DNA from: Dyadobacter sp.
GTDB taxonomy: Bacteria > Bacteroidota > Bacteroidia > Cytophagales > Spirosomataceae
Assembly: GCF_051859145.1 (NCBI RefSeq)
Contig: NZ_JBHYGF010000001.1
Coordinates: 4,032-68,031 of the forward strand
Length of the DNA stretch: 64,000 nt
Reading direction: 5' to 3'
The notes below the pieces were generated by a model. It had not been told where the DNA came from. It saw only the letters and a list, made by a program, of their open reading frames with translations, and did no database searches. Numbering within the stretch: position 1 is the stretch's first letter; each line of letters starts with the position of its first letter. A program made the position numbers and the translations under genes. Positions 12,969 to 27,875 of the stretch are shown in pieces.

Positions 12969-12971
12969 AAA

Positions 12972-15900
12972 ATGACTAACTCTGAATGTATTGAATTTAT
13001 TAAATCATTTATCAAACAGAAGGCAATTGAAAGCGGGCGCGTCAATGAGCTATTTTTTGATAAGACAAAGCTTGAATTAATATCGGTTAAAGATATTTTT
13101 CCAGGATTATCATCCTTTGATGAAACTACGTTTTCACATCTCTATGACGTTTCTGTCAAAGAATATCAGTCCGTGTTTCCGATTGAAATTGATCCATCTA
13201 TTTCGCTGGTTAAAAAGGGTTTTGTAACCTGGTTAACTGAAAAAAGGAAGGAGGAGCTTGCAACTGATTACATTGACAGATACCTGAGATTTCTTTCCTT
13301 AAAAAAGGGGCGGTCAGAGAGAGTTGTAAACGAACTTGCATCATCAAGTGAAAAAATTCTGTCCAAGTTGGGCGATCCAAAGTCTAACACTCCGTTTTAT
13401 ACCAAAGGATTAGTTGTAGGCAGCGTTCAATCTGGTAAAACAGGGAACTTCAATGCAGTAATAAACCGATCGATTGATGCAGGTTATAGTCTGATCGTTA
13501 TATTATCAGGTATAATGGAAGATTTGCGAAGTCAGACCCAGTTGAGGATTAGTGAAGAAGTTATAGGTGAGGGAACTGATATTTCCAAAGGCAATATCGG
13601 TGATATCGGTGTTGCCCAAATACGGAAGTTCGGCGAGCGTGGAGATCAGAGTGTTGCGCAGGTATTTTCAATCACTTCATATAAATCGGATTTCAAAAGA
13701 ACCGTTAAGGATATTGATTTCTCATTAAATAAAAAGAATATTCTTGTATGTAAGAAAAACACCGGAGTACTCAAGAATTTACTTATATGGCTTAGTGATA
13801 GTTTAAATGAGAGAGAAAAACATGACATACCATTACTGATAGTTGATGATGAGGCAGACAATGCTTCATTAAATAATTTAGGCAAAAAAGGAGCCGAATA
13901 CGCCAGTGCAATCAATGGGCAAATCAGAGCTTTGCTGGAAATGTTCACAAAGAAGTCTTATCTGGGCTATACGGCTACTCCCTTTGCAAATGTTTTGCAG
14001 GACAGGCATAAGGCTAGTGATACTAAACTGGCAATAGCCTATAAAGTAAATGGCGTCAGCACTAAAAGGGACTTTGATATGGTCCCCACTATCTTTCCCG
14101 AAAATTTCATTGAGCTACTTAACCCGCCAAGTAACTACATAGGTGCTAAACAGATTTTTGAAACCGTTTTAGATGAATCGGTTAAAATTCCAATGGTTGA
14201 AGTGGTGAGAGATACCAATTTTTCCTTCCCATCCCGGGTTCCAAAAGAAGACGGTACAGAAAGAGCAGCAAATAGAAATGACAGTTATCCAGAGAGTCTT
14301 CCGTCTTCGCTTGAGGAAGCTACACACTGTTTTTTGTTGGGAATTGCCTTGCGGCTTAGCAGAACTGCTGACATGGCCGACTCAGGGCTTTTAAACCCAC
14401 ATCATACAATGCTTGTTCATATTTCTCGATTTATACCGTGGCAGAATAAAACCAAGGTGTTAATTGAAGAGCTTGTAAAGAAATTGGAAGAGGATATCAA
14501 CAATGATCTTCCAAATAATCGAAGACGAATTTATGGAACGCTGGAAAAAACCTGGAATAAGTATTTCGCAGCCATCGTGCATAATATCAGAACATATCTT
14601 CCGGAAGGTTATTCAGATGAATTTCTGGTGCCAAAGAGGTTTGATGATATAAAAAGCTATCTTATTGAAGCTGCAAAAGGTATTGAAGTAAAGGCGATTA
14701 ACAGTGAAACCGGTGATAAACTGCAGTATATCAAGGATAGTTCAGGAAATGGGAAAAAGTACATTGCTGTTGGAGGTAACCGGTTGTCCCGGGGCTTCAC
14801 CCTTGAGGGTTTAACAATTAACTATTTTATACGAAATACAAATTACTCTGACACCTTGCTTCAAATGGGACGGTGGTTTGGTTACAGACCAGGATATTTG
14901 GATTGCTGCAAGGTCTTTACTACGCCGGATGCTGTTCAAAAATTTGACTCAACAACCAGGGCGATTGAAGAATTAGAGGCAGAATTTGGGAAAATGAACA
15001 GGAATCATCTGACGCCGACAGAGTTTGTACTTAGAGTAAGGAAGCATCCGGGCACTTTAAAAATTACCCGTCCTGCGATTCTAAAAGACACCAAGGTAGT
15101 TAACTGGTCATATCAGGACCAGCTTGTACAAACAACACGTTTTAAGATCAATGATGCGAAACGCCTGGATAAATCATGGGAAGATTTTAAAGATTTCATT
15201 ATAAGTCATAATCCTTCTCTGACAGAGGATCAAAACTTCATTCGGGTTGATTTAGACGTTGATCAGGTAATTGAATTTCTGCGTTTGCCCAATACGTTTG
15301 AAGACTTTGAAATGCAATCAATTATCCGGTTTATTGAGTTATGTAGAGCGAAGGGTAAATTAAAGAAGTGGACGGTTGCTATCAAGGTGAAAGGTAGGGG
15401 AGAGTCATTGAAAAAGAGTGATACCGGCTTTCCTGCCGATATTGATATGTCTCAGAGGTCTGGTCCGGGAAAGGTAAAAAAGGAGACTGAATATTCATCC
15501 TACCTAAAAGGCCTTTTCTTGACTGACGGTATTTTTTCTTCTTCCGGCAAATCAGCAAATATTGTTGCGGCTGGCTCAGACTTTAATATTTTGTTATCCA
15601 AGGAACAAAGTAAGACGGCTGAAGCAAAGTTCCGCGCTGAGACAAAAGAGAAATTTAAAGAAAAAAAATCCGATAAAGATCCTGATAAAGTTACCGTTCC
15701 GGAAAGAGTATACCGCGAAGAAATGTCAGATGAAACAGCTTTGATCGTAGTCTATCTGATAGATTTAAAAAGCGTATTTCTGCAAGGTGAGCCAGAGCCA
15801 GACGTAGATTTTGGGAAGATGATCACAGATTACGGTATTAATACTGCTGTTCCATTAATCGGGTACGCAATTGGTTTTCCTAAAATCAGTCCAGATCCGG

Positions 15901-15986
15901 GCGGTGAATATGTACATGGAGATTATGAAATGGATGAAGAAGGCAGCGATGAGTGGGATGAATCTTTGGAAAGCACTGACGAATAG
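12972..15986 (+). CDS. Z1-domain SF2-helicase-like endonuclease subunit
   Basis: GSVQSGKT Walker A, DDEADNAS, GYTATPFAN, GGNRLSRGFTLEGL and QMGRWFGYR motifs. Confidence 0.9.
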   Translation: MTNSECIEFIKSFIKQKAIESGRVNELFFDKTKLELISVKDIFPGLSSFDETTFSHLYDVSVKEYQSVFPIEIDPSISLVKKGFVTWLTEKRKEELATDYIDRYLRFLSLKKGRSERVVNELASSSEKILSKLGDPKSNTPFYTKGLVVGSVQSGKTGNFNAVINRSIDAGYSLIVILSGIMEDLRSQTQLRISEEVIGEGTDISKGNIGDIGVAQIRKFGERGDQSVAQVFSITSYKSDFKRTVKDIDFSLNKKNILVCKKNTGVLKNLLIWLSDSLNEREKHDIPLLIVDDEADNASLNNLGKKGAEYASAINGQIRALLEMFTKKSYLGYTATPFANVLQDRHKASDTKLAIAYKVNGVSTKRDFDMVPTIFPENFIELLNPPSNYIGAKQIFETVLDESVKIPMVEVVRDTNFSFPSRVPKEDGTERAANRNDSYPESLPSSLEEATHCFLLGIALRLSRTADMADSGLLNPHHTMLVHISRFIPWQNKTKVLIEELVKKLEEDINNDLPNNRRRIYGTLEKTWNKYFAAIVHNIRTYLPEGYSDEFLVPKRFDDIKSYLIEAAKGIEVKAINSETGDKLQYIKDSSGNGKKYIAVGGNRLSRGFTLEGLTINYFIRNTNYSDTLLQMGRWFGYRPGYLDCCKVFTTPDAVQKFDSTTRAIEELEAEFGKMNRNHLTPTEFVLRVRKHPGTLKITRPAILKDTKVVNWSYQDQLVQTTRFKINDAKRLDKSWEDFKDFIISHNPSLTEDQNFIRVDLDVDQVIEFLRLPNTFEDFEMQSIIRFIELCRAKGKLKKWTVAIKVKGRGESLKKSDTGFPADIDMSQRSGPGKVKKETEYSSYLKGLFLTDGIFSSSGKSANIVAAGSDFNILLSKEQSKTAEAKFRAETKEKFKEKKSDKDPDKVTVPERVYREEMSDETALIVVYLIDLKSVFLQGEPEPDVDFGKMITDYGINTAVPLIGYAIGFPKISPDPGGEYVHGDYEMDEEGSDEWDESLESTDE

Positions 15987-15992
15987 CATCCC

Positions 15993-16970
15993 ATGGAAAT
16001 ACAGGATATAAGCCGAAAATGGCTTTTAATGAACCCTCCGAGCGGAAATGCATATGCATCTGTACGTATCGACAGTACATCCTTACCGGGAATGTTCCTT
16101 GGCTTGAATAGTGAGAGTAAAAGATGTCTTATTTTAAAGTTGCCCAAGGGGTATAATCCTGATTTTCAGTCGTCTGTCAAGCAGAACTTATCATTAAGTC
16201 TTTACGCTGAAAGTGGATGGGTTGTATTAACGCTGCTCGACGATAACTTTTATGACTTGTTTGACGATTTGATTTTCTCGATATATATTAAAATCCATTC
16301 AATGTCATCGGCTAGGATATATGTCACAGAATTGCTCAAAACGTATTACAAATGGAGTGAGTTTTTTAAGGATATGCATAACCAAAGCTTAGCAGACGAG
16401 ACAGTCAGGGGGCTATTTGGTGAGTTGACGGTTCTCAATGAAATGGTACTGGAATCTACATCTGCCGATATTAATGATGTTCTTAAATCCTGGAAAGGGC
16501 CATATGATACTAACCATGACTTTGTTAATGAAATCTGTGACAAAGAGGTTAAAACAAGACTTGAATCTGTTTTAAATATCAGAATAGCAAGTGAGCATCA
16601 ACTTCAGGCGGATATCGGCAAGAATCTTGAATTGGTTATTGTAACTCTGGTGTCAGATACGGTTAATGGACTGTCTTTACTCGACCTTGTCATAACAATC
16701 AGAGACATTGTAATGTCGAAACTTGGTGACTACACGATTGTTTTAAATGGCCTTTCACAAAAGGGCTTGAATGTCAGTTCTTTACAGGCCTATAAAGATT
16801 TGAGGTTTGTTCTTGTCAAAATCTCCAGCTATGACTGTTGTCAAGTTGAATTTCCCAAAATAGTCAGAAGTAATATCGCCGCGGCGGTAAGTTCTGTGTC
16901 ATATAAATTAAATGTAGAAGAGCTTACACCCTTTATCTTATCAGAAACGCTTTTTAATGGAAATAAATGA
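15993..16970 (+). CDS. PD-(D/E)XK motif protein (DUF4420-like)
   Basis: RGLFGEL, WKGP..HDF, EVKT and IASEHQL; canonical position after Z1. Confidence 0.85.
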   Translation: MEIQDISRKWLLMNPPSGNAYASVRIDSTSLPGMFLGLNSESKRCLILKLPKGYNPDFQSSVKQNLSLSLYAESGWVVLTLLDDNFYDLFDDLIFSIYIKIHSMSSARIYVTELLKTYYKWSEFFKDMHNQSLADETVRGLFGELTVLNEMVLESTSADINDVLKSWKGPYDTNHDFVNEICDKEVKTRLESVLNIRIASEHQLQADIGKNLELVIVTLVSDTVNGLSLLDLVITIRDIVMSKLGDYTIVLNGLSQKGLNVSSLQAYKDLRFVLVKISSYDCCQVEFPKIVRSNIAAAVSSVSYKLNVEELTPFILSETLFNGNK

Positions 16971-19344
16971 ATACCTGAAATACAGAGAGGATTTACTTGT
17001 TGATACAAAGGATGAAGATGGCTTTATCAGCGAATCCAGGTTCTTAGACCTGGTATTACCCTCTCTCAGTGATGCAAAACTTATTGATTCAGAAGATTAT
17101 ACAGATTGTTATCTGTATTTGAAACAGGATAATATAAAAATTAATGGATATCAGATTAATGAGTCAGAAGAACGACTTCAGATCTTCATAGTAAATGAAG
17201 AATCAATAGATCTGGGTAATACAGATGAAAATATACTCATATCTCAAAAGAGTTATTATGATTTTATTTTCGCAAAGGTGTTAAAATTTGTCCGGAAGGC
17301 CATTAAACGGCAATTAGATAACGAAATTCAGGATGCCCATCCGATTAAGCCACTGATCAATTTCATTGCGTCACCAACTTTGGGATTGGCACAAATTGAT
17401 GTTATTGAGCTGTTTCTTGTTTCAGCTACCGCCACTGTTGAAAAAAGAGGTGAAGCGCCCACACCTAAAATGTTAGATTTTGAAGATGAGGAAATACCTG
17501 TGGTTTTCTATGACCGGGAAAAAAATAGTTGCAAGAAAGATATTCACGTTTTCAAAAGGTTAATTGATTTAAATTTTCTTTACAACGTACTTATATCCCA
17601 GGGAAACAGGGAAGTTCTTGAGGTCGATTTCGAAAGACTTTTTCAGAAGGGTATCAATGCAATCAAGGCAGCTGATGAGGAGAACTTTGAATCTTACCTC
17701 TGTGTGTTACCAGCTAGTGTCCTTGCGGAGCTCTATAAGCGATATAGCACCCGGATGCTAGAAAAAAATGTCAGGTCTTTCCTTCAGTTTAAAGGTGTAA
17801 ACCAGGGAATCAGGGATACTATTCGTAAAAATCCCGAACATTTCATTGCATATAATAATGGTTTAACCATTACTGCAATTGGTGCAGAGATAGAGGAACT
17901 GGATGAGCGGACTGTTATCAAATCTCTTAAAGATTTTCAGATTGTTAATGGCGGGCAGACAACGGCCACTATATACTTTTCCCAGAAGGATGGCCTGGAC
18001 ATTAGTAAGGTGAAGGTCATGGCTAAAATCAACATTGCCAAAAACGCAAATGAGGAGGATCTGAATGAGCTCATAGGTAATATCAGCAGATACTCAAATG
18101 CACAATCAAAAGTTAGCAATGCTGATTTAAGGTCCCGCAATCAGCAGTTGATCAGACTAAAATCTATTTCTGAATCGACCCTAACGCCCTCGGGCAAGAA
18201 GTGGTTTTTTGAACGATTTAAAGGTGAGTTCAATACATTACTCAGAAAGGACCCGAAGGGAAAAACGAAGATCAATAATTTGTATCCTAAGGAGCGCCGG
18301 TTTACAAAGGAAGAACTAGCGAAATATTATATGTCCTGGGGACAAAGCCCTTACCTTGTAAAAAAAGGAGGGGACAAGATTTTCAGAACTTTTATCGAGG
18401 AGCTTTCACCGGAAAAAGCAAAGGAGCCAAATGTTAACAGAGATTTTTATGAACATGTCATAGCACGCCTCATTCTGTTTAAGGAGCTTGAAAAAATCTA
18501 TGGTGCCGGGAAGAATTCAATGGGCCAATTAAGATCAGCCGTTGTTCCCTACGCAATTTCCGTTCTGTATATAGCGACAACCGGTTCTAAATCAGTGAAC
18601 GATTTCGACTTGTTTAAAATTTGGCAGGCGGAGAAGCTCGACGACAAATTGAAAATGTTAATGACCGAGCTGATGCAGCTTGTAAATGAGCTTATTAAAA
18701 AATATTCTCTTAGTGAAGATTATGGCGAATATTCGAAACGAAAGGAGTTGTGGGACAGCATTGCTTTGTCTCGGGAGATCAAGCAATTTATAACTTCGTC
18801 ACAGTTCCTTGAGGTAACAAGGACCTATTCGATCTCACAGGAAGAACTGAAGAAACGCCTTTTAAAGAACCTGAAGGTCAAAGAGATAGATTTTGGCAAT
18901 TTGTACGATAATGCTAAAATCTTTTCCAGGGGAGCGGATTACTATAAAAAGCTTCTTATGCTATTGTTTGACAGGTTATCAGCGTCGCAAAAAAATAAGG
19001 TTGATCGATTGATCTATTGTATTAACCAGAAGGCTGATATTGACGAGGAACATTGTGAATTCGAAAGAGAGCTTATTCATAAAATCCGGGTTGAAAATCC
19101 TGATCTTTTTGACAGCATCCAATTTATGGAGAACGAGGTTTACGTGAAAGGGGTGGACAGCGTTGTGAAATTATACAATTCATGCATTGAGAATGGGTTA
19201 AACTTAACATCTGAATTTGAGAAACGCAGAGAAATCTCAAAGGCGAGAGGTCTAACAAAGTACTCTGTCTTCGACGATATTGCAAAGGGGCTATTACAAG
19301 GAAAATCTCCTTCAATAAAACAGATTTATTATACTAGTATTTGA
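16957..19344 (+). CDS. AIPR-family protein
   Basis: EKNVRSFLQ, FIAYNNGLTI, QIVNGGQTT, WFFERFKGEF; overlaps the upstream gene. Confidence 0.9.
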   Translation: MEINEYLKYREDLLVDTKDEDGFISESRFLDLVLPSLSDAKLIDSEDYTDCYLYLKQDNIKINGYQINESEERLQIFIVNEESIDLGNTDENILISQKSYYDFIFAKVLKFVRKAIKRQLDNEIQDAHPIKPLINFIASPTLGLAQIDVIELFLVSATATVEKRGEAPTPKMLDFEDEEIPVVFYDREKNSCKKDIHVFKRLIDLNFLYNVLISQGNREVLEVDFERLFQKGINAIKAADEENFESYLCVLPASVLAELYKRYSTRMLEKNVRSFLQFKGVNQGIRDTIRKNPEHFIAYNNGLTITAIGAEIEELDERTVIKSLKDFQIVNGGQTTATIYFSQKDGLDISKVKVMAKINIAKNANEEDLNELIGNISRYSNAQSKVSNADLRSRNQQLIRLKSISESTLTPSGKKWFFERFKGEFNTLLRKDPKGKTKINNLYPKERRFTKEELAKYYMSWGQSPYLVKKGGDKIFRTFIEELSPEKAKEPNVNRDFYEHVIARLILFKELEKIYGAGKNSMGQLRSAVVPYAISVLYIATTGSKSVNDFDLFKIWQAEKLDDKLKMLMTELMQLVNELIKKYSLSEDYGEYSKRKELWDSIALSREIKQFITSSQFLEVTRTYSISQEELKKRLLKNLKVKEIDFGNLYDNAKIFSRGADYYKKLLMLLFDRLSASQKNKVDRLIYCINQKADIDEEHCEFERELIHKIRVENPDLFDSIQFMENEVYVKGVDSVVKLYNSCIENGLNLTSEFEKRREISKARGLTKYSVFDDIAKGLLQGKSPSIKQIYYTSI

Positions 19345-19451: not shown

Positions 19452-20468
19452 TTGGTTATGAAAGACTATCTTGCTCTCTTAGAGCAGCTTAAAAAAGAGA
19501 TTCGAGAAGCCCGGTTACGAGCGACGATTTCGGCTAACGTCGAAATGCTATCTCTCTATTGGAGAATTGGTAACATTATCTTACAGCAAGAAAAGCAAGA
19601 AGGGTGGGGACAGAAAGTTGTGTTACGATTGGTAACAGACCTGAAGGCGGAATTTCCAAATATGAAAAGCTTGTCGCCGCGTAACTTACGGTATATGAAG
19701 TCGTTCGCTGCGGCGTATCCTGATGAGTCAATTTTGCAAGTCACACTTGCAAAATTGACCTGGTACCATCATATTACCTTACTTAGTAAAGTAAAAGACC
19801 CAGACAAGCGCCTATTTTACATCACAGAAACAGCTCAGCAGGGCTGGTCTCGTGATGTTATGATCATGCAAATAGAATCCAATTATTCAGAACGTCATGG
19901 GAATACAGTATCAAACTTTGGGAGGGCACTTCCAGATCCTTTATCTGATCTAGCCCAACAGTCGATTAAGGATCCGTATTTGTTTGACTTTTTAACTTTG
20001 GCTGACGGTTATAAAGAACGTGATTTAGAAAACGGCCTGGTTGAACATATCACAAAATTTCTATTAGAGTTAGGCAAAGGGTTTGCTTTTGTCGGTCGGC
20101 AATATCCCATAGAGGTGTCTGATAGAGAATTTTTAATAGATCTGTTGTTTTACCATCTGAAACTCAGAGCTTATCTTGTCATCGAATTGAAAGCAGTTGA
20201 GTTTGAACCCGAATTTGTCGGAAAACTTAATTTTTACTTATCTGCTGTTGACGATCAGCTACGAACTGAACATGACAATCCAACAATTGGGCTTTTAATT
20301 TGTCGAAAGCGGGACAAACTGATGGCAGAGTACGCCTTACGCGATGTCAACAAGCCAATAGGAATCTCCGAATACAGAATATCTGAGGCGCTGCCTGATG
20401 ACCTTAAAAGCACACTCCCAACAATTGAAGAAATTGAAGAAAGATTGAAACAAGAAGGGAGTAGTTAA
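19452..20468 (+). CDS. YhcG/DUF1016 PD-(D/E)XK nuclease-domain protein
   Basis: LYWRIG, GWGQKVV..L..DL, KDPYLFDFL, IDLLFYH, IELK and DNPTIGLLIC. Confidence 0.92.
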   Translation: MVMKDYLALLEQLKKEIREARLRATISANVEMLSLYWRIGNIILQQEKQEGWGQKVVLRLVTDLKAEFPNMKSLSPRNLRYMKSFAAAYPDESILQVTLAKLTWYHHITLLSKVKDPDKRLFYITETAQQGWSRDVMIMQIESNYSERHGNTVSNFGRALPDPLSDLAQQSIKDPYLFDFLTLADGYKERDLENGLVEHITKFLLELGKGFAFVGRQYPIEVSDREFLIDLLFYHLKLRAYLVIELKAVEFEPEFVGKLNFYLSAVDDQLRTEHDNPTIGLLICRKRDKLMAEYALRDVNKPIGISEYRISEALPDDLKSTLPTIEEIEERLKQEGSS

Positions 20469-20980
20469 TACTCCGTATTTTTGATTCGGTAAATACTCAA
20501 TTCGGTACTTTCACGAATACTATCGGGATCGTGTTCAAAAGGTATTTCTTGTAATAGTTTTATATAGTCAGCTGGCAAATTGTGTTCATTTGCACCAGCT
20601 AAGATATGTGCTAGGTACCAATTATATGGCATAAGGTTTGGGTTAATTGATTCATAATCAGCATAGTATACTAACGCTGCGATCTCTGCTTTGTCTACAA
20701 GTACTTTTACTGATTTTTGGTTATATCCATTTCCCAAACCTTCAGCTTTGTCCAGCTCTTTTTTTTCAGAATCATCTATTTCAAATATCACACCCCAAAC
20801 TTCATCTGTTGTAATTCCTGTTTCAAAACAATCAGCCTTTGCTGATCCATCTTTTTTACTAATCTTTTGAAGTCGAAGTTGATGCCCCATAACTTTTCCA
20901 ATAGCAGAGAACTGAGCTGATGGGACACGATCTTTCAACCTATTCGTTGACATATTTGAGCCGTAAGAGAAAATTAACAT
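20465..20980 (-). CDS. Gamma-glutamylcyclotransferase (GGCT/AIG2-like) family protein
   Basis: FSYGSNM, VWGVIFEI, LDKAEG (catalytic Glu position), PYNWY..IL.GA.EH.LP.DY. Confidence 0.85.
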   Translation of the reverse strand: MLIFSYGSNMSTNRLKDRVPSAQFSAIGKVMGHQLRLQKISKKDGSAKADCFETGITTDEVWGVIFEIDDSEKKELDKAEGLGNGYNQKSVKVLVDKAEIAALVYYADYESINPNLMPYNWYLAHILAGANEHNLPADYIKLLQEIPFEHDPDSIRESTELSIYRIKNTEY

Positions 20981-21024
20981 GGATATGTATTTCGATAAAA
21001 TGGATTCTTCTGAATTACTAAATC

Positions 21025-21522
21025 TTAAGAAACTTGGAACATTTCAACACAATCACCCATTGGGAACACAAAAACTTTAATGCTGGGAGTGATTAGAGAT
21101 GGATTTCCGCCCAAAATGAGCAGTATAGGCTCCGGACAATTGTATTTTTTGTCTCTTGCAATACTTTTCATTTGTCTTCTATCCTGATAACTTGGAGTCG
21201 GTGTTGCAAACGGGTGAAAGTGCCATTCACCTAAATAATAAGTTTTCGATTCTTTAAATCTTCGATCTAAAATTGTTCGTAAACCGATGACTCCTCTTTC
21301 AAACCAGGTTTTGCCTGCTTTTGAATCTGGCGGTGGTCCCGTTATTGAAGATACCACTGCGCCTTTCAGACTTTCTGAATATCGACCTATCATTATTCCG
21401 CCAGTTTCTTTATTTCCGGCCTTAGTACATTGATATTGAAGATCGGTAATGATTGTTTGGGTCAGCATAACACCGAACCTTCGATCCGACGACAAAAATT
21501 CCATGCTAATTCCGGATAACAT
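21025..21522 (-). CDS. cap3: JAB/MPN isopeptidase, CBASS Cap3
   Basis: ETGGIMIG and GEWHFHP...PSYQD JAMM motif; overlaps cap2. Confidence 0.9.
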   Translation of the reverse strand: MLSGISMEFLSSDRRFGVMLTQTIITDLQYQCTKAGNKETGGIMIGRYSESLKGAVVSSITGPPPDSKAGKTWFERGVIGLRTILDRRFKESKTYYLGEWHFHPFATPTPSYQDRRQMKSIARDKKYNCPEPILLILGGNPSLITPSIKVFVFPMGDCVEMFQVS

Positions 21523-23287
21523 CTATTCCCTGAAACATATCACCATCTGGAGTATTAAGTACAATAAATGTGCTTGATGAGTCGCTGCCTACATAATATG
21601 CTTCAATTAATTTTATCGCCGCGGTGCTCATCATCCAGACATCATCCACCCTTGCTGGGAAAAGCGGATGCCAGCAGCCAATGCCCTCTCGTGGCAAGCT
21701 ACTGTCGCCTACAATTTCAATCTCCTGCTCTAACCACGGAGAAAATTCCTTTTTAAATTCAAATTCGAGATTCTCAGCCCCTTGATATTGATAATGAAAT
21801 AATCTTTTTGCGTTTAAACCCAGTGATATTGATACAAATTTTTTATCCGATCCACTTATGTGATTCGACAAATAATGGAGTGCTTGATCATTACCCGTTG
21901 CATCTATGATCAGATCAAACTGTTGTAAATAACTTTTGTCGGAGTCAAGTATCTGCTCGATATTACTTCTATTGAAACTTACTCTCGTTTCTGGGAATAT
22001 GTCATTCAATCTTTTTGATAGTTCCTGAGCCTTGCATTGGTCGAGTGATTTCAATGTCAATGTGTGCCGACTCATATTACCAAGTTCCAATTTATCCTTA
22101 TCCATGATTGTTAAGTTTCGGCAAGTGCCTCTAATAAGACATTCCCCTATCACTGACCCTACTGCTCCCGCTCCAATAAGCAGCACCTTGGCTTGGGACA
22201 ATTTGTCAGAATATTTCCCTCTTGCACTGATCGAGCCTATATTGCCATTTTGGGAATCCATCCACTCAATTTTTTTGTTTTTGTGAAACGCTCTGTTTGC
22301 TAATTCTTGAGCTTCTTGACCTGGTCGAAAACCTTTTAATGTACCTTTTACTGGGAGTGAGATTGGCTGCCAATGAATTTGAAAGGGTTCTTCTCCAATC
22401 TTCTCTGGAACAGGAAATCCTAAAATCAAACAGTCTGCGGATTGTCTATACCCTTTGATAAATATATCAGTTATTATTTTTTGAAAATCAACATTGTGTT
22501 CATTTCCAATGTGATAAAGCCTTTCCCAAGTTGCAGGGGCTTCCCACGGACATGATACTGGGATAAAGTCAATTAGTAACCAAACTATGTTTTTAGACTT
22601 AGCTTTATGATTATTAATTGAGTCGTTCCAAGTGTTGGAGTATAAGACCTTTCCGCAAAAATCTTTAAAGACGGTAATAAAGAAGCTGCTTTTTCCAGGA
22701 TGGATAATAGCTTCCGCTTGGCCTGACTTTTTGTTCGTTGATATTAACTTCGAATAAGTCGCTTCATCTTCAGAGTAATAATATTTATCAGTAAACGAAA
22801 GCGGAAAGGAAGGAAGTTCAAAAAGTTGGCCATTCAAAGATAGCTGATCATTTATTGCTGCTTCCAACCACATCTTACAGCGATAGACATGCCAAAAAAG
22901 ACGTTCACTTGCCTCTGTTGGTTCTGAATTAAACCCTCTAAGTGAAAAAGATCCGAATGTAGTATTCAAGCATAAATCTCCGCTTCTCCACTTATTTTGA
23001 GTTTGAATATTATTATGATTCTGATGTTGAAATGTTAAGGCAATACCTTTTTCTTTAGCGGGGTAAGTGTGAATCTTGCCCCACGGATAGTTTTCAGGTA
23101 TGGTTGCATACCATTCTGTTGAATCAGGTATACTGTATGTGTTTGCTCCAGCTGAAATGTTCAACCGGAATTTTAAGATCCAACCTGCGCCAATTTCATC
23201 CCACACTAAATCTTCTAACAATTCGTATCCGGTAATTTCCTCCAGGTTTCTTCTGGCAAGCAGCAAGTCTTTGGTTGGGGCTATCAT
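21506..23287 (-). CDS. cap2: E2-E1 (ThiF) fusion, CBASS Cap2
   Basis: N-terminal E2-like region with GDLCL; C-terminal ThiF IGAGAVGS, IDATG and GCWHPLFP. Confidence 0.9.
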   Translation of the reverse strand: MIAPTKDLLLARRNLEEITGYELLEDLVWDEIGAGWILKFRLNISAGANTYSIPDSTEWYATIPENYPWGKIHTYPAKEKGIALTFQHQNHNNIQTQNKWRSGDLCLNTTFGSFSLRGFNSEPTEASERLFWHVYRCKMWLEAAINDQLSLNGQLFELPSFPLSFTDKYYYSEDEATYSKLISTNKKSGQAEAIIHPGKSSFFITVFKDFCGKVLYSNTWNDSINNHKAKSKNIVWLLIDFIPVSCPWEAPATWERLYHIGNEHNVDFQKIITDIFIKGYRQSADCLILGFPVPEKIGEEPFQIHWQPISLPVKGTLKGFRPGQEAQELANRAFHKNKKIEWMDSQNGNIGSISARGKYSDKLSQAKVLLIGAGAVGSVIGECLIRGTCRNLTIMDKDKLELGNMSRHTLTLKSLDQCKAQELSKRLNDIFPETRVSFNRSNIEQILDSDKSYLQQFDLIIDATGNDQALHYLSNHISGSDKKFVSISLGLNAKRLFHYQYQGAENLEFEFKKEFSPWLEQEIEIVGDSSLPREGIGCWHPLFPARVDDVWMMSTAAIKLIEAYYVGSDSSSTFIVLNTPDGDMFQGIDVIRN

Positions 23288-24406
23288 TTATGCAAATCTC
23301 CCTCCGGATGGCTCAGTAGGTCCGCTTCTTTCAGAATATCCCCCCTTAACCGAAGGTTCTGGCGCATCTGGAAAGGCTTTCCCAAAAAGAATTTTCCAAT
23401 ATTTCACCTTATCATAGGTGGTAGTTGCATCCAACGCTAATCTTGCCGTTTGCGCTGCATCTTTCACATAATCATAAAAAGCGTTGAAATCTTCTACAGA
23501 TACTCGCTTCCAAACATTGTGATCGGGCACGCCTCTATCTGAAAGAACTGGGACAATTTCCAATGAACGATAGGCAGCATACTTAGAAATAATTTTTTCA
23601 AAAGTTTCTGTAATGCCTTGCGCTACGGATGTGATATGATCAGGACAACAATCTCCAATCATGTGTTCGATGGGATACCCTTTCGGGTACTTTAAGTCTG
23701 TTAGTTTCAATACCCGCCACCATTTGATCGCCTTTACGACATTAATGTAGTGCAGGTTTGTTGATTTGTTTTTTTCTCTGGTCCATCGGATCTGTTCCAA
23801 AGGATCAGTTTCTACCCATTCATTTGCCTCACGATCTGGTATCCAAAGAGGTTCTAACTTCCAATCAGCCTGTTTACGAATGGACTCTAACAAGAAAAGA
23901 CTTCGTTGTTGTCCCTCTTTTGGTTCAATGTAATTTTCGACAAGTTTCCACTCCATATCATCTTCGAGCATCAAATTGGTTATAACACTGGCTGATCGTA
24001 ACCTTGACTGTTCAGCCTCAGAAGGAGCTGAGGTAACAACGATATCCAAGTCAACATAAGACAGCTCAATCCCAATTGAACGCCCCTGTATTTCGTATTT
24101 TCCTTTGTAATGTTTTTCAACAAATGGTATAAATTTCTTTATCGCTTCCTTGGGGTTCGTATTGTGGCGATCAATCTTTGTTACAACAATTACGTCTACG
24201 TCAGCGCGCTTACCGTTATTTGGCCGAGTTGCAGTAGAGCGCCGGTAACTTCCTTGCAAAAATGTACTTACAATAATTTTAGATAATTCCGGATCAGCGG
24301 CAAGTCTCTCACGGAGCGTCTTATGGCCTGTTTTTAGATCATCAATCTGAGAAGATGTGAGCCTAATATTCTTCAGGAAGTCATTGAAATAGGATGGAAT
24401 TGGCAT
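23288..24406 (-). CDS. cdnD: cGAS/DncV-like nucleotidyltransferase, CdnD-like
   Basis: FLQGSYRRSTATRP...ADVDVIVV and GRSIGIELSYVDLDIV strongly recall Enterobacter CdnD; C-terminus GGRFA. Confidence 0.88.
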   Translation of the reverse strand: MPIPSYFNDFLKNIRLTSSQIDDLKTGHKTLRERLAADPELSKIIVSTFLQGSYRRSTATRPNNGKRADVDVIVVTKIDRHNTNPKEAIKKFIPFVEKHYKGKYEIQGRSIGIELSYVDLDIVVTSAPSEAEQSRLRSASVITNLMLEDDMEWKLVENYIEPKEGQQRSLFLLESIRKQADWKLEPLWIPDREANEWVETDPLEQIRWTREKNKSTNLHYINVVKAIKWWRVLKLTDLKYPKGYPIEHMIGDCCPDHITSVAQGITETFEKIISKYAAYRSLEIVPVLSDRGVPDHNVWKRVSVEDFNAFYDYVKDAAQTARLALDATTTYDKVKYWKILFGKAFPDAPEPSVKGGYSERSGPTEPSGGRFA

Positions 24407-24411
24407 AATAT

Positions 24412-25935
24412 TTAGTTAGGGAATGTTAAAACTGGTTGATAATCACCCGCTTTTGTAGCGGGAAAGTTAAATTCATACAAAACAATGTTGCCCAATACGG
24501 CTGCGTATTGACCGAAGTAGAATGCGAAAGCGTTGGGGGCAGCCATAAATACGTGAATCTTACCACTGCGCTCATGGATTGTTCTCATATTCTGAATTTG
24601 CCTTGCAATGGTCTGGGCTACATTCAGGACATGAGTCCCGTCTTTAAGTGCTAAATGTGAAGGTCCTGGGTTTATTTTTGCGTCGATTATTCGTCCCACT
24701 GTCGGCAATTGTTCGGATACAAAAGATTCTACATCTATCAGGACGTCATGAGTTATACTGATAGCGAGTGCGATTTCATTTGCACTTGCATTCATTTGTT
24801 TTTGATCAAAGAGCACAGTATCCGTAGCAAACTGTTCTTCAAAATGAGGCTCCCAGAGTATTTTTGAATTTTTTGTTTTTTGAATTATAGATGCTTCCAC
24901 ACCCAATTTTGGGTTTAGAGAGTAGCCAACCGCAAAAGCAAGTGAAAGGTGTGTGTCCAGAGAAAAAGTAATTTTCTTTTCTTTTCCTGTTACGGTTTGT
25001 ATGAACGTTCTAAGATCGGGCAAAACATGACTTTGCCAAAGAAGAGAATCTTTTATTTTCCGGTCATTATAATGATGAGCTAAGCATAAGCAATCGATAT
25101 TTTCCTTTTCAAAGTTTTCCGTTCCAGCTAAAAAAGTTCTAATCCCAACTCGGTGAAAGTATTCCGGCGATTGTGGCGCGAATAGCCCTTCCTCTTTACA
25201 CAGTTGCCGAAAACGGTTTAGTGTAAATTCATTGCGATTTTGACCATGAAGTCTGGTAATAAGACCATCGTATTTATTTGAAACCTGAGTTTCAGGTATA
25301 GGGTACAAACCAGCAAGTTGCAAGCTGGGATTTATTATATCTAAAATATTATGGATATCGGAAAAATTTGATTTTATCCGGAGGGAAGACAAACAGTTGT
25401 AGAGCTCTTCATCCTTGTCAAATCCGAGATGTTCTCGCCAAAGTTTTCGCACCTTTCCCATTTCACTGTCATCAGTCTTTCCCTGCATAAGAACATCTAA
25501 ACGTATTTTGTCACCCACACCTAAGAGTTTTCCGATTACGTTATTAGAATCAATGCCCCATGTATTTACCAAAATATATCTGGCTTTTTGCGACGGTAGG
25601 GTCTTCAATTGCTGATTTTTTAGCTTTTGAAGTAGAGAAATGGACGTCGCACCGATAAATGCAGGATCTATCAGGGCTTCAACACTAAAGAAGTTACTCT
25701 TATCTACATGATGCTTGACCTGATAAAAATCGACGTCGACAAGGTCGCCCGTACTTTTATCTAAGATTGGTGGATCATAATTCACAACAACATCGTCGAA
25801 GCCTGTAACATTATTTGCTTCCCATACGATAGAAGCAATATTATTATCAGGTACTAACATCCTTGCCGCCTGCCACCAAAAGATGCTCTCTTGATAAAAT
25901 ATCCCTTGGGTAATTGCAATTATAGAATTCGCCAT
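24412..25935 (-). CDS. cap4: Endonuclease-SAVED CBASS effector, Cap4-like
   Basis: N-terminal GFDDVVV...DFYQVK nuclease motif; C-terminal SAVED with DTHLSLAFAVG and HVFMAAPNAFAFYFGQ. Confidence 0.9.
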   Translation of the reverse strand: MANSIIAITQGIFYQESIFWWQAARMLVPDNNIASIVWEANNVTGFDDVVVNYDPPILDKSTGDLVDVDFYQVKHHVDKSNFFSVEALIDPAFIGATSISLLQKLKNQQLKTLPSQKARYILVNTWGIDSNNVIGKLLGVGDKIRLDVLMQGKTDDSEMGKVRKLWREHLGFDKDEELYNCLSSLRIKSNFSDIHNILDIINPSLQLAGLYPIPETQVSNKYDGLITRLHGQNRNEFTLNRFRQLCKEEGLFAPQSPEYFHRVGIRTFLAGTENFEKENIDCLCLAHHYNDRKIKDSLLWQSHVLPDLRTFIQTVTGKEKKITFSLDTHLSLAFAVGYSLNPKLGVEASIIQKTKNSKILWEPHFEEQFATDTVLFDQKQMNASANEIALAISITHDVLIDVESFVSEQLPTVGRIIDAKINPGPSHLALKDGTHVLNVAQTIARQIQNMRTIHERSGKIHVFMAAPNAFAFYFGQYAAVLGNIVLYEFNFPATKAGDYQPVLTFPN

Positions 25936-26063: not shown

Positions 26064-27398
26064 ATGTTGATTCGTTTCATTGCCGAAAACTTTCTGTCCT
26101 TCAACGAACGTACCGAGTTCAACATGCTGACCGGAGACCTTAGGCGTTTACCTGATCATGTCTACCGTTCCAATAAAATAGATATACTAAGAAGTGCAGT
26201 TATCTATGGAGCGAATGGAGCGGGAAAATCAAATTTGATTAACGCTATTAAGATTCTAAGTGAGATTGTCTCAGATGGGGTATTGTCGATTTCTTCTGAC
26301 GATACGTGTTTTAGGTTATCCGATCAAGGCGACCGCCCTTCAATGCTGGAAATTCATTTCATAACGGAAGGAGTGGCGTACAGTTATAGCTTAGCGTTTA
26401 TTAAAGACTTGATAATTAGGGAATCGCTAAATTTATTGAATTTTGGCAAAAAGGAAGATAGTCTCATATTTGACAGGACTATTAACAAGCAGGGAAAAGT
26501 TAATATCAAACTTGCACCTAAATACCTTAAAACACGTAAGGATAAGCTTCTGATACAAATTTATGAAGAAGACGTACTTGATCCGGAGATGACGTTCATT
26601 ACTCTTGTAAAGGAAAAGAAATATCAAGAGATAACATCGGCTTATAATTGGTTGGAAAGCGGATTATTAATCATCTTTCCGGGAATGCAGTACGGCGGTC
26701 TGGTAAGTAATTTTATAAATGACGAGGAATTTAAGGTCTTTACCAATGAGATTATCTCAGGATTTGATACAGGCGTTGACCAAATTGATATTCAAACAAT
26801 AGATTTTGAAGCTTTTTTTGGTGAGGACAATGCACTAGAAAAGGAAAAGGTATTGAGATCGATCAAAACAGGTGAAACTGAACGGGTTGGAGATAATAGA
26901 AATGCCTTAGCGATGATGGAAAATGGTAAACCGGTGGTTAAAAAGGCGGTTTCTTATCATTCAAGTTCAGCAGGAACAAAGGTTAAATTTGAACTGTTTG
27001 AGGAGTCAGATGGCACTCTGCGGCTTCTAGATTTTATCCCATTCCTTTATATGTTGGAGAAATACCCTGTTACTGTAATCGTTGATGAGATTGATCAAAG
27101 TATTCATCCCGTTATGCTCAAAGAATTAGTAACGAAGATTCAGAATAATCCGAAAAAGGTAGGACAGTTGATTTTTACCACGCATGAAGCAAATCTTCTT
27201 GATACTGATTTATTTCGCCAGGATGAAATTTGGTTTGTCGAAAAAAATAAAACTGGAGCAAGCCATTTCTATCAATTGCTTGAATTTGACACTCGTTCCG
27301 ATCTGGATATTCGAAAGGGGTATTTATCTGGTAAATTTGGTGCAATCCCTTTTCTTGGCAACATTAAAGACTTGCATTGGGCATCCGGGAATAATTAA
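26064..27398 (+). CDS. AAA_21/ABC-type ATPase (AbiLi/RloA-like)
   Basis: FIAENFLSF, Walker A GANGAGKSN, ESDGTLRL signature, Walker B IVDEID, FTTH, terminal GKFGAIP. Confidence 0.88.
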   Translation: MLIRFIAENFLSFNERTEFNMLTGDLRRLPDHVYRSNKIDILRSAVIYGANGAGKSNLINAIKILSEIVSDGVLSISSDDTCFRLSDQGDRPSMLEIHFITEGVAYSYSLAFIKDLIIRESLNLLNFGKKEDSLIFDRTINKQGKVNIKLAPKYLKTRKDKLLIQIYEEDVLDPEMTFITLVKEKKYQEITSAYNWLESGLLIIFPGMQYGGLVSNFINDEEFKVFTNEIISGFDTGVDQIDIQTIDFEAFFGEDNALEKEKVLRSIKTGETERVGDNRNALAMMENGKPVVKKAVSYHSSSAGTKVKFELFEESDGTLRLLDFIPFLYMLEKYPVTVIVDEIDQSIHPVMLKELVTKIQNNPKKVGQLIFTTHEANLLDTDLFRQDEIWFVEKNKTGASHFYQLLEFDTRSDLDIRKGYLSGKFGAIPFLGNIKDLHWASGNN

Positions 27399-27431: not shown

Positions 27432-27875
27432 CTATGTAAAATAATTATATATATAAATATCTTTTTTATCGTTGTACGATGCTAATTGAGAGGCAACTAG
27501 CTCATCCCAAAATCTAGTTGCTTCCGTGCTTCGAAACTCAGGATCATCAACCATCTCTCCCGGCTTATTGGAGCTCGAAGTGACTGCTTTATTAAACATT
27601 TCCTGTACATACGTAATCATTCTGGCTCCAATGCGCTTGCCTTTAAGGTGTATATGATCGTTATGGGCTAATTCAATGATACGAATACTTTCATTTAGCT
27701 CAATAACAGTGAATTGATACGAGCCTGCTTTAAGATTTGAATCAAAAATCTCAAAACAATGTTTCGGCCATACCCCTTCATCTGTTCCAAGCAGTGGTTT
27801 TTCCTTTAAGGAATATTCTACGTTAAACTTGTATTCTTCTCCATCACGCCCGATCGTGTATATCTGAGATTCCAT
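27432..27875 (-). CDS. Hypothetical protein, possible GNAT fold
   Basis: 147 aa; HLKGKRIGARMI resembles GNAT motif A and EATRFWDEL resembles the A..F(Y/W) motif B. Confidence 0.45.
   Translation of the reverse strand: MESQIYTIGRDGEEYKFNVEYSLKEKPLLGTDEGVWPKHCFEIFDSNLKAGSYQFTVIELNESIRIIELAHNDHIHLKGKRIGARMITYVQEMFNKAVTSSSNKPGEMVDDPEFRSTEATRFWDELVASQLASYNDKKDIYIYNYFT

What the first reader, a model, noticed from the sequence alone, without database searches (positions are those of the whole stretch)
20465..20980. Gamma-glutamylcyclotransferase-like gene placed as a fifth gene of a type II CBASS operon
Seen: the GGCT-family ORF starts 44 nt after the cap3 stop on the same strand, with no evident terminator between, and keeps YGSN and the LDKAEG Glu. 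Established: Cap2 conjugates the CD-NTase C-terminus to targets and Cap3 removes it; the related GGACT enzymes cleave gamma-glutamyl-epsilon-lysine isopeptides; GGCT is not a standard CBASS ancillary gene to my knowledge. Inference: a possible new CBASS accessory gene acting on isopeptide adducts or glutathione/thiol state. It could also be a passenger.
Basis: partly seen in the sequence, partly recalled or inferred. Interest (0 to 1): 0.65.

Follow-up and report, generated by a model that had tools for sequence, protein, structure and literature searches.

The report
Incidental GGCT gene beside CBASS operon
A small gamma-glutamylcyclotransferase gene really does sit 44 bases behind a complete four-gene CBASS anti-phage operon, but neither its relatives nor the operon's closest relatives share this arrangement, so it is most likely an unrelated neighbour in a defence island rather than a new CBASS component.

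Summary
On the minus strand, Cap4 (SAVED-nuclease), CD-NTase, Cap2 (E1-E2) and Cap3 (JAB) are followed after 44 nt, with no terminator-like structure, by a 171-aa ORF (20465-20980). That ORF is a well-formed C7orf24-type gamma-glutamylcyclotransferase: Pfam AIG2_2, YGSN motif, Glu80 aligned to human Glu98, AlphaFold model TM 0.80 to human GGCT.

- None of 98 loci carrying family members (1.48 Mb) holds a CD-NTase, Cap3 or Cap4. The single Cap2-profile hit is a lone ThiF-domain ORF.
- None of 84 related type II CBASS loci holds a GGCT. 53 of them have at least 600 nt beyond Cap3, and one more has 584 nt.
- In the three distinct loci with the closest operons and enough sequence (Cap2 45-64% identical), the conserved block is a divergent AAA_21 ATPase plus Cap4 to Cap3. 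It ends at Cap3.
- The GGCT is absent from all 34 congeneric genomes and has no relative above 53% identity.
- GGCT chemistry needs a free alpha-amino gamma-glutamyl group. A CD-NTase C-terminal isopeptide has none.

Most likely it is a horizontally acquired passenger enzyme, perhaps transcribed by read-through. A weak residual lead remains: four of the six nearest metagenomic relatives lie beside other defence or toxin-antitoxin genes.

The parts
20465..20980 (-). Stand-alone gamma-glutamylcyclotransferase (C7orf24/GGCT type), 171 aa; the gene in question
   Evidence: Pfam AIG2_2 3e-16 and GGACT 2e-9. Human GGCT by sequence, E 7e-12. AF2 pLDDT 93.4. Foldseek 2RBH/3CRY TM 0.80, rmsd 1.8 A. No PADLOC or NCBIfam model matches.
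20981..21024 (-). 44-nt spacer between cap3 stop and GGCT start; no terminator-like hairpin, no recognisable promoter
   Evidence: (z = +1.06). No exact TAnnTTTG on the minus strand between 20981 and 22834.
21025..21522 (-). Cap3 (JAB/JAMM isopeptidase), last conserved gene of the CBASS block
   Evidence: Pfam Prok-JAB 4.5e-9. PADLOC JAB 9e-55. 53-59% identical in L100-L104.
21506..23287 (-). Cap2 (E1-E2 fusion)
   Evidence: PADLOC E1-E2 3.5e-183 and Pfam ThiF. Homologues carry Cap2_linker plus ThiF.
23288..24406 (-). CD-NTase (SMODS)
   Evidence: Pfam SMODS 3.9e-27. PADLOC cyclase 1.5e-158.
24412..25935 (-). Cap4-type effector (endonuclease N-terminus plus SAVED sensor)
   Evidence: Pfam SAVED 1.8e-29. 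PADLOC endonuclease effector 7e-161.
26064..27398 (+). AAA_21 / AbiLi-like ATPase, divergent from cap4; travels with this CBASS subclade
   Evidence: Pfam AAA_21 8e-28 and PADLOC AbiLi 4.6e-79. 61-78% identical and in the same divergent position in L100, L101/L102 and L103.
19452..20468 (+). YhcG/DUF1016 PD-(D/E)xK nuclease (PADLOC candidate PDC-S02), convergent with GGCT, stops overlapping by 4 nt
   Evidence: Pfam YhcG_C 1e-65 and PADLOC PDC-S02 3e-147. No homologue in the 80 genome loci of the GGCT family searched with it.
20458..20474 (.). 6-bp hairpin at the convergent gene ends; terminator-like mainly for the + strand (YhcG)
   Evidence: Folding z = -3.08 on the + strand and -1.69 on the - strand.

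Best explanation
The ORF is an intact, probably active gamma-glutamylcyclotransferase of the C7orf24/GGCT type. Such an enzyme lets the free alpha-amine of a gamma-glutamyl group attack its own gamma-amide, releasing 5-oxoproline and the amine or amino acid. It is a horizontally acquired accessory gene that happens to lie between two defence units (a YhcG nuclease and a type II CBASS) in a defence island, which an earlier unchecked note places on a plasmid. The CBASS module that moves between genomes is the divergent AAA_21 ATPase plus Cap4, CD-NTase, Cap2 and Cap3, and it ends at Cap3. The GGCT was joined to its 3' flank only in this lineage. Because the gap is 44 nt with no terminator, the gene is plausibly transcribed by read-through from the CBASS promoter, but it is not a functional part of CBASS signalling or of CD-NTase conjugation. 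Shown: identity, fold, catalytic motifs, spacing, and lack of linkage elsewhere. Inferred: enzymatic activity, read-through transcription, absence of a functional link.
For: Identity and fold.
The GGCT family is not CBASS-linked. tblastn with the window's Cap4, CD-NTase, Cap2 and Cap3 finds nothing in 80 genome loci. Profile HMMs of the four CBASS proteins find nothing but one generic ThiF ORF in 98 family loci, 1.48 Mb. No neighbour is conserved. The immediate neighbours span 173 Pfam families in 139 proteins, and no SMODS, ThiF or JAB appears among the families listed, i.e. those shared by two or more neighbours.
CBASS relatives lack the gene. A GGCT family HMM finds 0 hits in 84 related type II CBASS loci and scores the window's own copy at 3.6e-68. 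53 of those loci have at least 600 nt beyond Cap3, and the next gene there is heterogeneous: 30 on the same strand, 23 on the opposite strand, 69-1690 aa.
The closest operons with flanking sequence (Cap2 64, 47 and 45% identical) show AAA_21, Cap4, CD-NTase, Cap2 and Cap3. Cap3 is then followed by DUF4145, an integrase or a small ORF. AAA_21 is conserved at 61-78% identity in them.
Accessory status: the gene is absent from 34 of 34 same-genus genomes and is single-copy in its own genome. It sits on a long branch with no relative above 53% identity.
No paper in the library links GGCT and CBASS.
Against: The tight same-strand spacing without a terminator is what an operon member would show. No orthologue closer than 53% exists, so a lineage-specific recruitment cannot be excluded by comparison. 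Four of the six nearest metagenomic relatives lie next to other defence or TA genes: an SMC-like ATPase of an RM-like operon, an AAA_13 ATPase, a TIR protein, a pPIWI-nuclease with SEFIR-TIR, and HipBA. This hints that the clade may not be a neutral passenger.
Confidence: 0.75

Rival explanations
1. Lineage-specific fifth CBASS gene. The GGCT was recruited in this plasmid lineage and modulates CBASS, for example by acting on a gamma-glutamyl-containing small molecule or adduct that controls Cap2/Cap3 priming, or on thiol/glutathione state.
For: 44-nt same-strand gap, no terminator, and the first hairpin lies only after the GGCT. The gene is intact with all catalytic motifs.
Against: 0 of 84 related CBASS loci and 0 of 98 family loci share the linkage. 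The block conserved among the nearest operons ends at Cap3. By established chemistry (Oakley et al. 2008, cited in PMC2588565), GGCT needs a free alpha-amino gamma-glutamyl substrate. The CD-NTase C-terminus (…GGRFA) joined to Lys offers none. A single occurrence is what chance juxtaposition in a defence island predicts.
Confidence: 0.07
2. Independent conflict-related gene. This GGCT clade is itself a defence-island resident, either a stand-alone or a 'satellite' enzyme that serves whichever system it lands next to. One possible role is removing gamma-glutamyl modifications that phage amidoligases install. It works in parallel with CBASS, not as part of it.
For: The nearest relatives sit directly beside diverse defence or TA genes. 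Two plasmid relatives lie by Shedu fragments, TA, IS and DUF5677 genes. A Chitinophagaceae clade is syntenic with GmrSD, SSB and DUF932. A phage GGCT family exists (PHROG 2520). Earlier unchecked notes of this scan report GGCT-fold genes in other defence contexts. The distribution is patchy and HGT-like.
Against: In 77 representative genomes the neighbours are mostly ordinary metabolic or regulatory genes. PADLOC hits at E <= 1e-10 number about 14-18 of 139 at +-1 (5 from one syntenic clade), about 8-10 of 128 at +-2, and about 6 of 91 in a distal control ring at +-8 (these are approximate tallies from family-level count tables). That leaves little or no enrichment once the clade is discounted. 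No PADLOC model matches the protein. The six nearest relatives are a small, non-random sample.
Confidence: 0.13
3. Non-functional remnant or mis-called ORF.
For: None beyond its isolation from close relatives.
Against: The frame is full-length and all 26 invariant family positions are retained. The structure is predicted with confidence, pLDDT 93.4. It is the family's normal length, mostly 163-172 aa.
Confidence: 0.02

Closest known systems
Human gamma-glutamylcyclotransferase GGCT / C7orf24 (PDB 2PN7, 2RBH, 3CRY, 2I5T)
   Same: Same fold over the whole length: TM 0.80, rmsd 1.8 A, 29-30% identity. The YGSN(L) motif is present, the catalytic Glu is aligned (Glu80 to Glu98), and the C-terminal 'GA.E..LP.(D/E)Y' helix pair matches.
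   Different: Bacterial, plasmid-borne, and not part of a known gamma-glutamyl cycle. It carries a family-specific invariant loop (K39, S41, D44, S46, K48) where human GGCT has a different, 4-residue-longer segment. The substrate is unknown.
GGACT (gamma-glutamylamine cyclotransferase, PDB 3JUB) and E. coli YtfP / AIG2-like proteins
   Same: Same superfamily. Pfam GGACT is also matched above its threshold.
   Different: Much weaker structural match: TM 0.47 for 3JUB and 0.42 for YtfP 1XHS. In any case that activity concerns the free dipeptide-like compound (my own knowledge, not tested here).
Type II CBASS (effector, CD-NTase, Cap2, Cap3)
   Same: The four upstream genes are a textbook example with a Cap4 SAVED-endonuclease effector.
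   Different: The GGCT is not found in any of 84 related operons. Within this subclade the recurrent extra partner is instead the divergent AAA_21 ATPase.
Aig2-family GGCT paired with GCS2-like/amidoligase genes in Firmicutes and phages (Iyer, Burroughs & Aravind 2008, PMC2588565)
   Same: It is the only published conserved gene neighbourhood for bacterial GGCT-fold enzymes that I found.
   Different: No amidoligase or GCS2-like gene lies near the window's GGCT. One relative (P0005, L088) follows an ATP-grasp, alpha-E, transglutaminase and proteasome-like operon.

Membership tests
GGCT / AIG2_2 (PF13772), C7orf24-type gamma-glutamylcyclotransferases | Profile match above the curated threshold | tested here: met
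   60.1 bits against a cut-off of 27, E 3e-16.
GGCT / AIG2_2 (PF13772), C7orf24-type gamma-glutamylcyclotransferases | N-terminal YGS(L/N) substrate-binding motif | tested here: met
   F4-S-Y6-G7-S8-N9-M10. F4 and G7-M10 are invariant and Y6 is at least 90% conserved in 22 homologues. The motif aligns with human YGSNL.
GGCT / AIG2_2 (PF13772), C7orf24-type gamma-glutamylcyclotransferases | Catalytic glutamate (human Glu98) | tested here: met
   Glu80 in LDKAEGLG aligns with LDEQEGV of human GGCT and is invariant in the family.
GGCT / AIG2_2 (PF13772), C7orf24-type gamma-glutamylcyclotransferases | GGCT fold | tested here: met
   AF2 pLDDT 93.4 and pTM 0.87. TM 0.79-0.81 to 2RBH, 3CRY and 2I5T.
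GGCT / AIG2_2 (PF13772), C7orf24-type gamma-glutamylcyclotransferases | Release of 5-oxoproline from gamma-glutamyl substrates | not testable with these tools
   Needs an enzyme assay.
GGACT subfamily (PF06094; gamma-glutamylamine cyclotransferase) | Best sequence and structural match is to GGACT-type proteins | tested here: not met
   The Pfam GGACT score (38.5 bits) is lower than AIG2_2 (60.1 bits). Foldseek TM is 0.47 to 3JUB against 0.80 to GGCT.
CBASS ancillary (Cap) genes | Recurrent, conserved linkage to CD-NTase operons across unrelated genomes | tested here: not met
   0 of 98 GGCT-family loci have CBASS genes. 0 of 84 related type II CBASS loci have a GGCT. The closest operons end at Cap3.
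CBASS ancillary (Cap) genes | Co-transcription with the operon | not testable with these tools
Only indirect evidence exists: a 44-nt gap with no terminator.
CBASS ancillary (Cap) genes | Effect on defence or on CD-NTase conjugation | not testable with these tools
   Needs phage assays and conjugate blots.
Type II CBASS (applies to the four upstream genes) | CD-NTase, E1-E2 Cap2, JAB Cap3 and a nucleotide-sensing effector in one operon | tested here: met
Known anti-phage defence proteins (PADLOC-DB 2.0) | Match to any defence-system model | tested here: not met
   0 families for the GGCT protein at E <= 0.01.

The most novel reading that the evidence does not exclude
This GGCT clade is a mobile 'satellite' enzyme of defence islands. 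It lands at the ends of different immune operons (CBASS here; an SMC-like RM ATPase, AAA_13, TIR and pPIWI-nuclease systems elsewhere). There it would contribute gamma-glutamyl-bond chemistry to phage conflict, for instance by erasing gamma-glutamyl modifications made by phage amidoligases or by depleting a gamma-glutamyl metabolite during infection. In this plasmid it would be co-expressed with CBASS by read-through.
Probability: 0.1. Interest if true: 0.6.

Novelty: new member of a known kind. Interest (0 to 1): 0.2.

Why it matters
If the GGCT were a true CBASS component, it would add a new chemistry to the still unclear Cap2/Cap3 priming step of bacterial cGAS-like immunity. The comparative evidence says it is not, so the locus should be annotated as a standard four-gene type II CBASS plus an adjacent divergent GGCT-family gene. 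This keeps a one-off juxtaposition from being propagated as a 'new Cap gene'. Two modest points survive. Bacterial C7orf24-type GGCTs are a large, patchy, functionally unassigned accessory family. The gene that actually co-travels with this CBASS subclade is an AbiLi-like AAA_21 ATPase.

Tried and rejected
1. The first related-loci run, with a 22-sequence alignment, failed because it had no conserved 7-10 column stretch. It was redone with 6 sequences.
2. The sigma-70 promoter scan is of little use, because earlier notes place the genome in Bacteroidota. A search for the Bacteroidota -7 motif TAnnTTTG found none upstream of the GGCT, but also none at the CBASS promoter itself, so it is uninformative.
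3. Base composition does not separate the GGCT from its neighbours: GC is 0.33-0.43 across 9000-30000.
4. Repeats flanking the GGCT that might mark a cassette were sought. Only short chance-level matches appeared.
5. Apparent N-terminal extensions of GGCT ORFs in L039, L075 and L076 are Arg/Pro-rich artefacts of start-codon choice in high-GC DNA. Only two rhizobial-type plasmid proteins (L189, L190) have a real N-terminal domain. It has no Pfam match and no homologue in the window.
6. The largest neighbour clusters among the 80 loci proved to be generic paralogue families such as histidine kinases and ABC ATPases, not partners.
8. My early guess of a cyanobacterial origin was dropped after the notes. 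The taxon was not verified independently.

Full report
**Anatomy.** On the minus strand of the window lie five consecutive ORFs:
- a 507-aa SAVED-domain endonuclease effector, Cap4 type (24412-25935)
- a 372-aa CD-NTase (23288-24406)
- a 593-aa E1-E2 fusion, Cap2 (21506-23287)
- a 165-aa JAB protein, Cap3 (21025-21522)
- after 44 nt, a 171-aa ORF (20465-20980)

Pfam and PADLOC identify the first four without ambiguity: SMODS 3.9e-27, cyclase 1.5e-158, E1-E2 3.5e-183, JAB 9e-55, endonuclease-SAVED 7e-161. The fifth ORF matches Pfam AIG2_2 (3e-16, 60 bits against a cut-off of 27) and GGACT (2e-9). It matches no PADLOC or NCBIfam model. Its stop overlaps by 4 nt, convergently, the stop of a YhcG/DUF1016 PD-(D/E)xK nuclease gene, the PADLOC candidate PDC-S02 (19452-20468).

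The surroundings form a defence island. They hold a resolvase, an Mza-like set of a C5 methyltransferase, GHKL ATPase, Z1, DUF4420 and AIPR (9841-19344), then YhcG, the GGCT, CBASS and an AbiLi-like AAA_21 ATPase. Earlier unchecked notes of this scan place the window on a Dyadobacter (Bacteroidota) conjugative plasmid. I did not verify the taxon.

The 44-nt gap, the strand, the YGSN motif (FSYGSNM, residues 4-10) and the LDKAEGLG glutamate are all there. The consensus scan finds no terminator-like hairpin in the gap. The junction RNA folds no better than shuffled sequence (z = +1.06). The first hairpin downstream is a 6-bp stem at 20458-20474, at the convergent gene ends. It is stronger on the plus strand (z = -3.08) than on the minus strand (z = -1.69). 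No promoter could be assigned. An exact Bacteroidota -7 motif is missing before the GGCT but also before cap4, so that test is uninformative.

**What the protein is.** It aligns over residues 2-147 with human GGCT/C7orf24 (E 7e-12), with Glu80 on the catalytic Glu98. An AlphaFold2 model built on 22 homologues is confident, with pLDDT 93.4 and pTM 0.87. It superposes on human GGCT structures at TM 0.80 and rmsd 1.8 A. GGACT (3JUB) reaches only TM 0.47 and ChaC2 about 0.6. It is therefore a GGCT-type enzyme, not a GGACT-type one.

The family is large. Most members are 163-172 aa. They share 26 invariant positions, including a family-specific K39, S41, D44, S46, K48 loop that human GGCT lacks.

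**Is the family linked to CBASS? No.** I fetched 80 loci from representative genomes (40-51% identity, seven phyla) and 18 loci around the six nearest metagenomic relatives.
- tblastn with the window's Cap4, CD-NTase, Cap2, Cap3 and YhcG found nothing in the 80 genome loci.
- Profile HMMs built from 84 CBASS operons found nothing in all 98 loci (1.48 Mb) except one generic 304-aa ThiF-domain ORF. The same HMMs recover the window's four genes at 4e-61 to 4e-218.
- All-against-all clustering of 889 neighbours within 6 kb shows no conserved partner. The largest clusters are histidine kinases and ABC ATPases.
- The immediate neighbours span 173 Pfam families in 139 proteins. No SMODS, ThiF or JAB is among the families shared by two or more neighbours, which are the only ones listed.

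**Do related CBASS operons carry a GGCT? No.** The closest Cap2 relatives (67, 66, 64, 47, 45 and 45% identity) were traced to contigs, and three with usable contigs were examined.
- L100 (64%), L101/L102 (47%) and L103 (45%) each show the order Cap4, CD-NTase, Cap2, Cap3. Cap3 is followed respectively by an opposite-strand DUF4145 gene, an opposite-strand integrase, and a small ORF.
- A scan of metagenome contigs added 80 loci.
- A GGCT family HMM scores the window's copy at 3.6e-68 but finds no hit at E <= 1 in any of the 84 loci.
- 76 of the 84 have a recognisable Cap3. 53 have at least 600 nt beyond it, and L104 (Cap2 66%) has 584 nt. The next gene is heterogeneous: 30 on the same strand, 23 on the opposite strand, 69-1690 aa.
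- The divergent AAA_21 ATPase upstream of cap4, in contrast, is conserved at 78, 66 and 61% identity in L100, L101/L102 and L103.

So the block that moves together is AAA_21 plus Cap4 to Cap3, and it ends at Cap3.

**Origin of the gene.** It is single-copy in its genome. It is absent from all 34 genomes of the same genus, and among 59 relatives there is only one distant hit, at 26% identity. In a 198-sequence tree it sits alone on a long branch (0.91) and not within the Bacteroidota clade of the family. The CBASS operon is also rare in the phylum, with Cap2 in 3 of 401 genomes. Both are horizontally acquired, but nothing indicates that they arrived together.

**Chemistry.** By established knowledge of the family (Oakley et al. 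2008, cited in PMC2588565), GGCT-fold enzymes cyclise a gamma-glutamyl group that has a free alpha-amine. Cap2 joins the alpha-carboxylate of the CD-NTase C-terminus (here …GGRFA) to a lysine, and that bond offers no such group. The proposed action on CD-NTase adducts is therefore mechanistically unlikely. This is inference, not a test.

**A residual lead.** The nearest relatives often lie in conflict-type contexts:
- P0002 directly follows a ResIII, methyltransferase, UvrD and SMC-like ATPase operon.
- P0004 follows an AAA_13 ATPase.
- P0008 precedes a TIR protein and a DUF5677 gene by 45 nt.
- P0013 lies two genes from a pPIWI-associated nuclease and a SEFIR-TIR protein.
- P0022 abuts a HipBA pair.
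- P0005 follows an ATP-grasp, alpha-E, transglutaminase and proteasome-like operon.
- Two plasmid relatives sit among Shedu fragments, TA and IS genes, and another DUF5677 gene.
- A Chitinophagaceae clade is syntenic with GmrSD, SSB and DUF932.

Earlier notes of this scan, which are unchecked AI leads, also report GGCT-fold genes in other defence contexts.

A ring test on the 77 genome loci is not convincing, however. PADLOC matches at E <= 1e-10 number about 14-18 of 139 at +-1 (five from the one syntenic clade), about 8-10 of 128 at +-2, and about 6 of 91 in a control ring at +-8. These are approximate tallies from family-level count tables. I rate the 'defence-island satellite' reading at roughly 0.1.

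**Literature.** No paper in the searched library contains both CBASS and gamma-glutamyl(-)cyclotransferase, or the enzyme name with 'anti-phage'. The only published neighbourhood found for bacterial Aig2/GGCT genes is with GCS2-like ligases in Firmicutes (PMC2588565). The DefensePredictor paper does not mention the fold.

**Verdict.** The most likely reading (0.75) is an intact GGCT-family accessory gene juxtaposed by chance with a standard type II CBASS in a defence island, possibly transcribed by read-through. Interest is low.

Noticed in passing
window 26064-27398 (+); L100 2902-4230, L101 2819-4156, L103 2754-4079: An AbiLi-like AAA_21 ATPase, divergent from cap4, is 61-78% identical in the three independent closest CBASS loci. 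That is better conserved than Cap2 (45-64%) or Cap4 (54-68%). It is absent from the 30 more distant CBASS loci that have at least 1500 nt upstream of Cap4. It appears to co-travel with this CBASS subclade. In L101 an RloB gene follows it; in the window no partner is recognisable.
   Followed up: partly
window 9841-19344 (+): Five-gene operon of a C5 DNA methyltransferase, GHKL ATPase (HATPase_c_3), Z1 domain protein (1004 aa), DUF4420 PD-(D/E)xK and AIPR. The composition is Mza-like, and the operon lies directly upstream of YhcG and the GGCT.
   Followed up: no
window 19452-20468 (+) and 20458-20474: The YhcG/DUF1016 nuclease (PADLOC candidate PDC-S02, 3e-147) converges on the GGCT with stop codons overlapping by 4 nt. 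A 6-bp hairpin spans both stops and folds significantly only on the + strand (z = -3.08).
   Followed up: partly
GGCT protein residues 39-48 (window about 20837-20866, minus strand): The family-specific motif K39-x-S41-x-x-D44-x-S46-x-K48 is invariant in 22 homologues from several phyla. Human GGCT has a different, longer segment there. It may define the substrate of this bacterial subfamily.
   Followed up: no
L083 5480-8498; L090 2518-5238; L186 6001-7856; L188 6001-10148; L184 1754-3909: The nearest relatives of the GGCT lie on the same strand next to different defence or TA genes: an SMC_N/AAA_23 ATPase of an RM-like operon, an AAA_13 ATPase, a TIR_2 protein with DUF5677, a pPIWI-associated nuclease with SEFIR-TIR, and HipBA.
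   Followed up: partly
L088 3965-8516: One relative (P0005, 49% identical) directly follows a circularly permuted ATP-grasp, alpha-E, transglutaminase and proteasome-like operon. This is a predicted peptide-ligation system in which a gamma-glutamyl-cleaving enzyme could make biochemical sense.
   Followed up: no
L189 5017-6534; L190 5302-6510: On a Rhizobium and a Nitratireductor plasmid the GGCT domain is the C-terminus of 402-505-aa proteins. Their shared N-terminal domain (81% identical, with a CxxC…CxxC zinc-ribbon-like element) has no Pfam match. A DUF5677 gene is adjacent in L190, as it is near the stand-alone GGCT of L186.
   Followed up: partly
L017, L055, L063, L066, L074 (Chitinophagaceae and relatives): A conserved local order runs GmrSD-like nuclease (HEC-05), GGCT, SSB, DUF932. 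It resembles the leading or accessory region of an integrative conjugative element.
   Followed up: no
window 7374-8765 (+) and 27432-27875 (-): Two ORFs (463 aa and 147 aa) at the edges of the defence units have no Pfam match.
   Followed up: no
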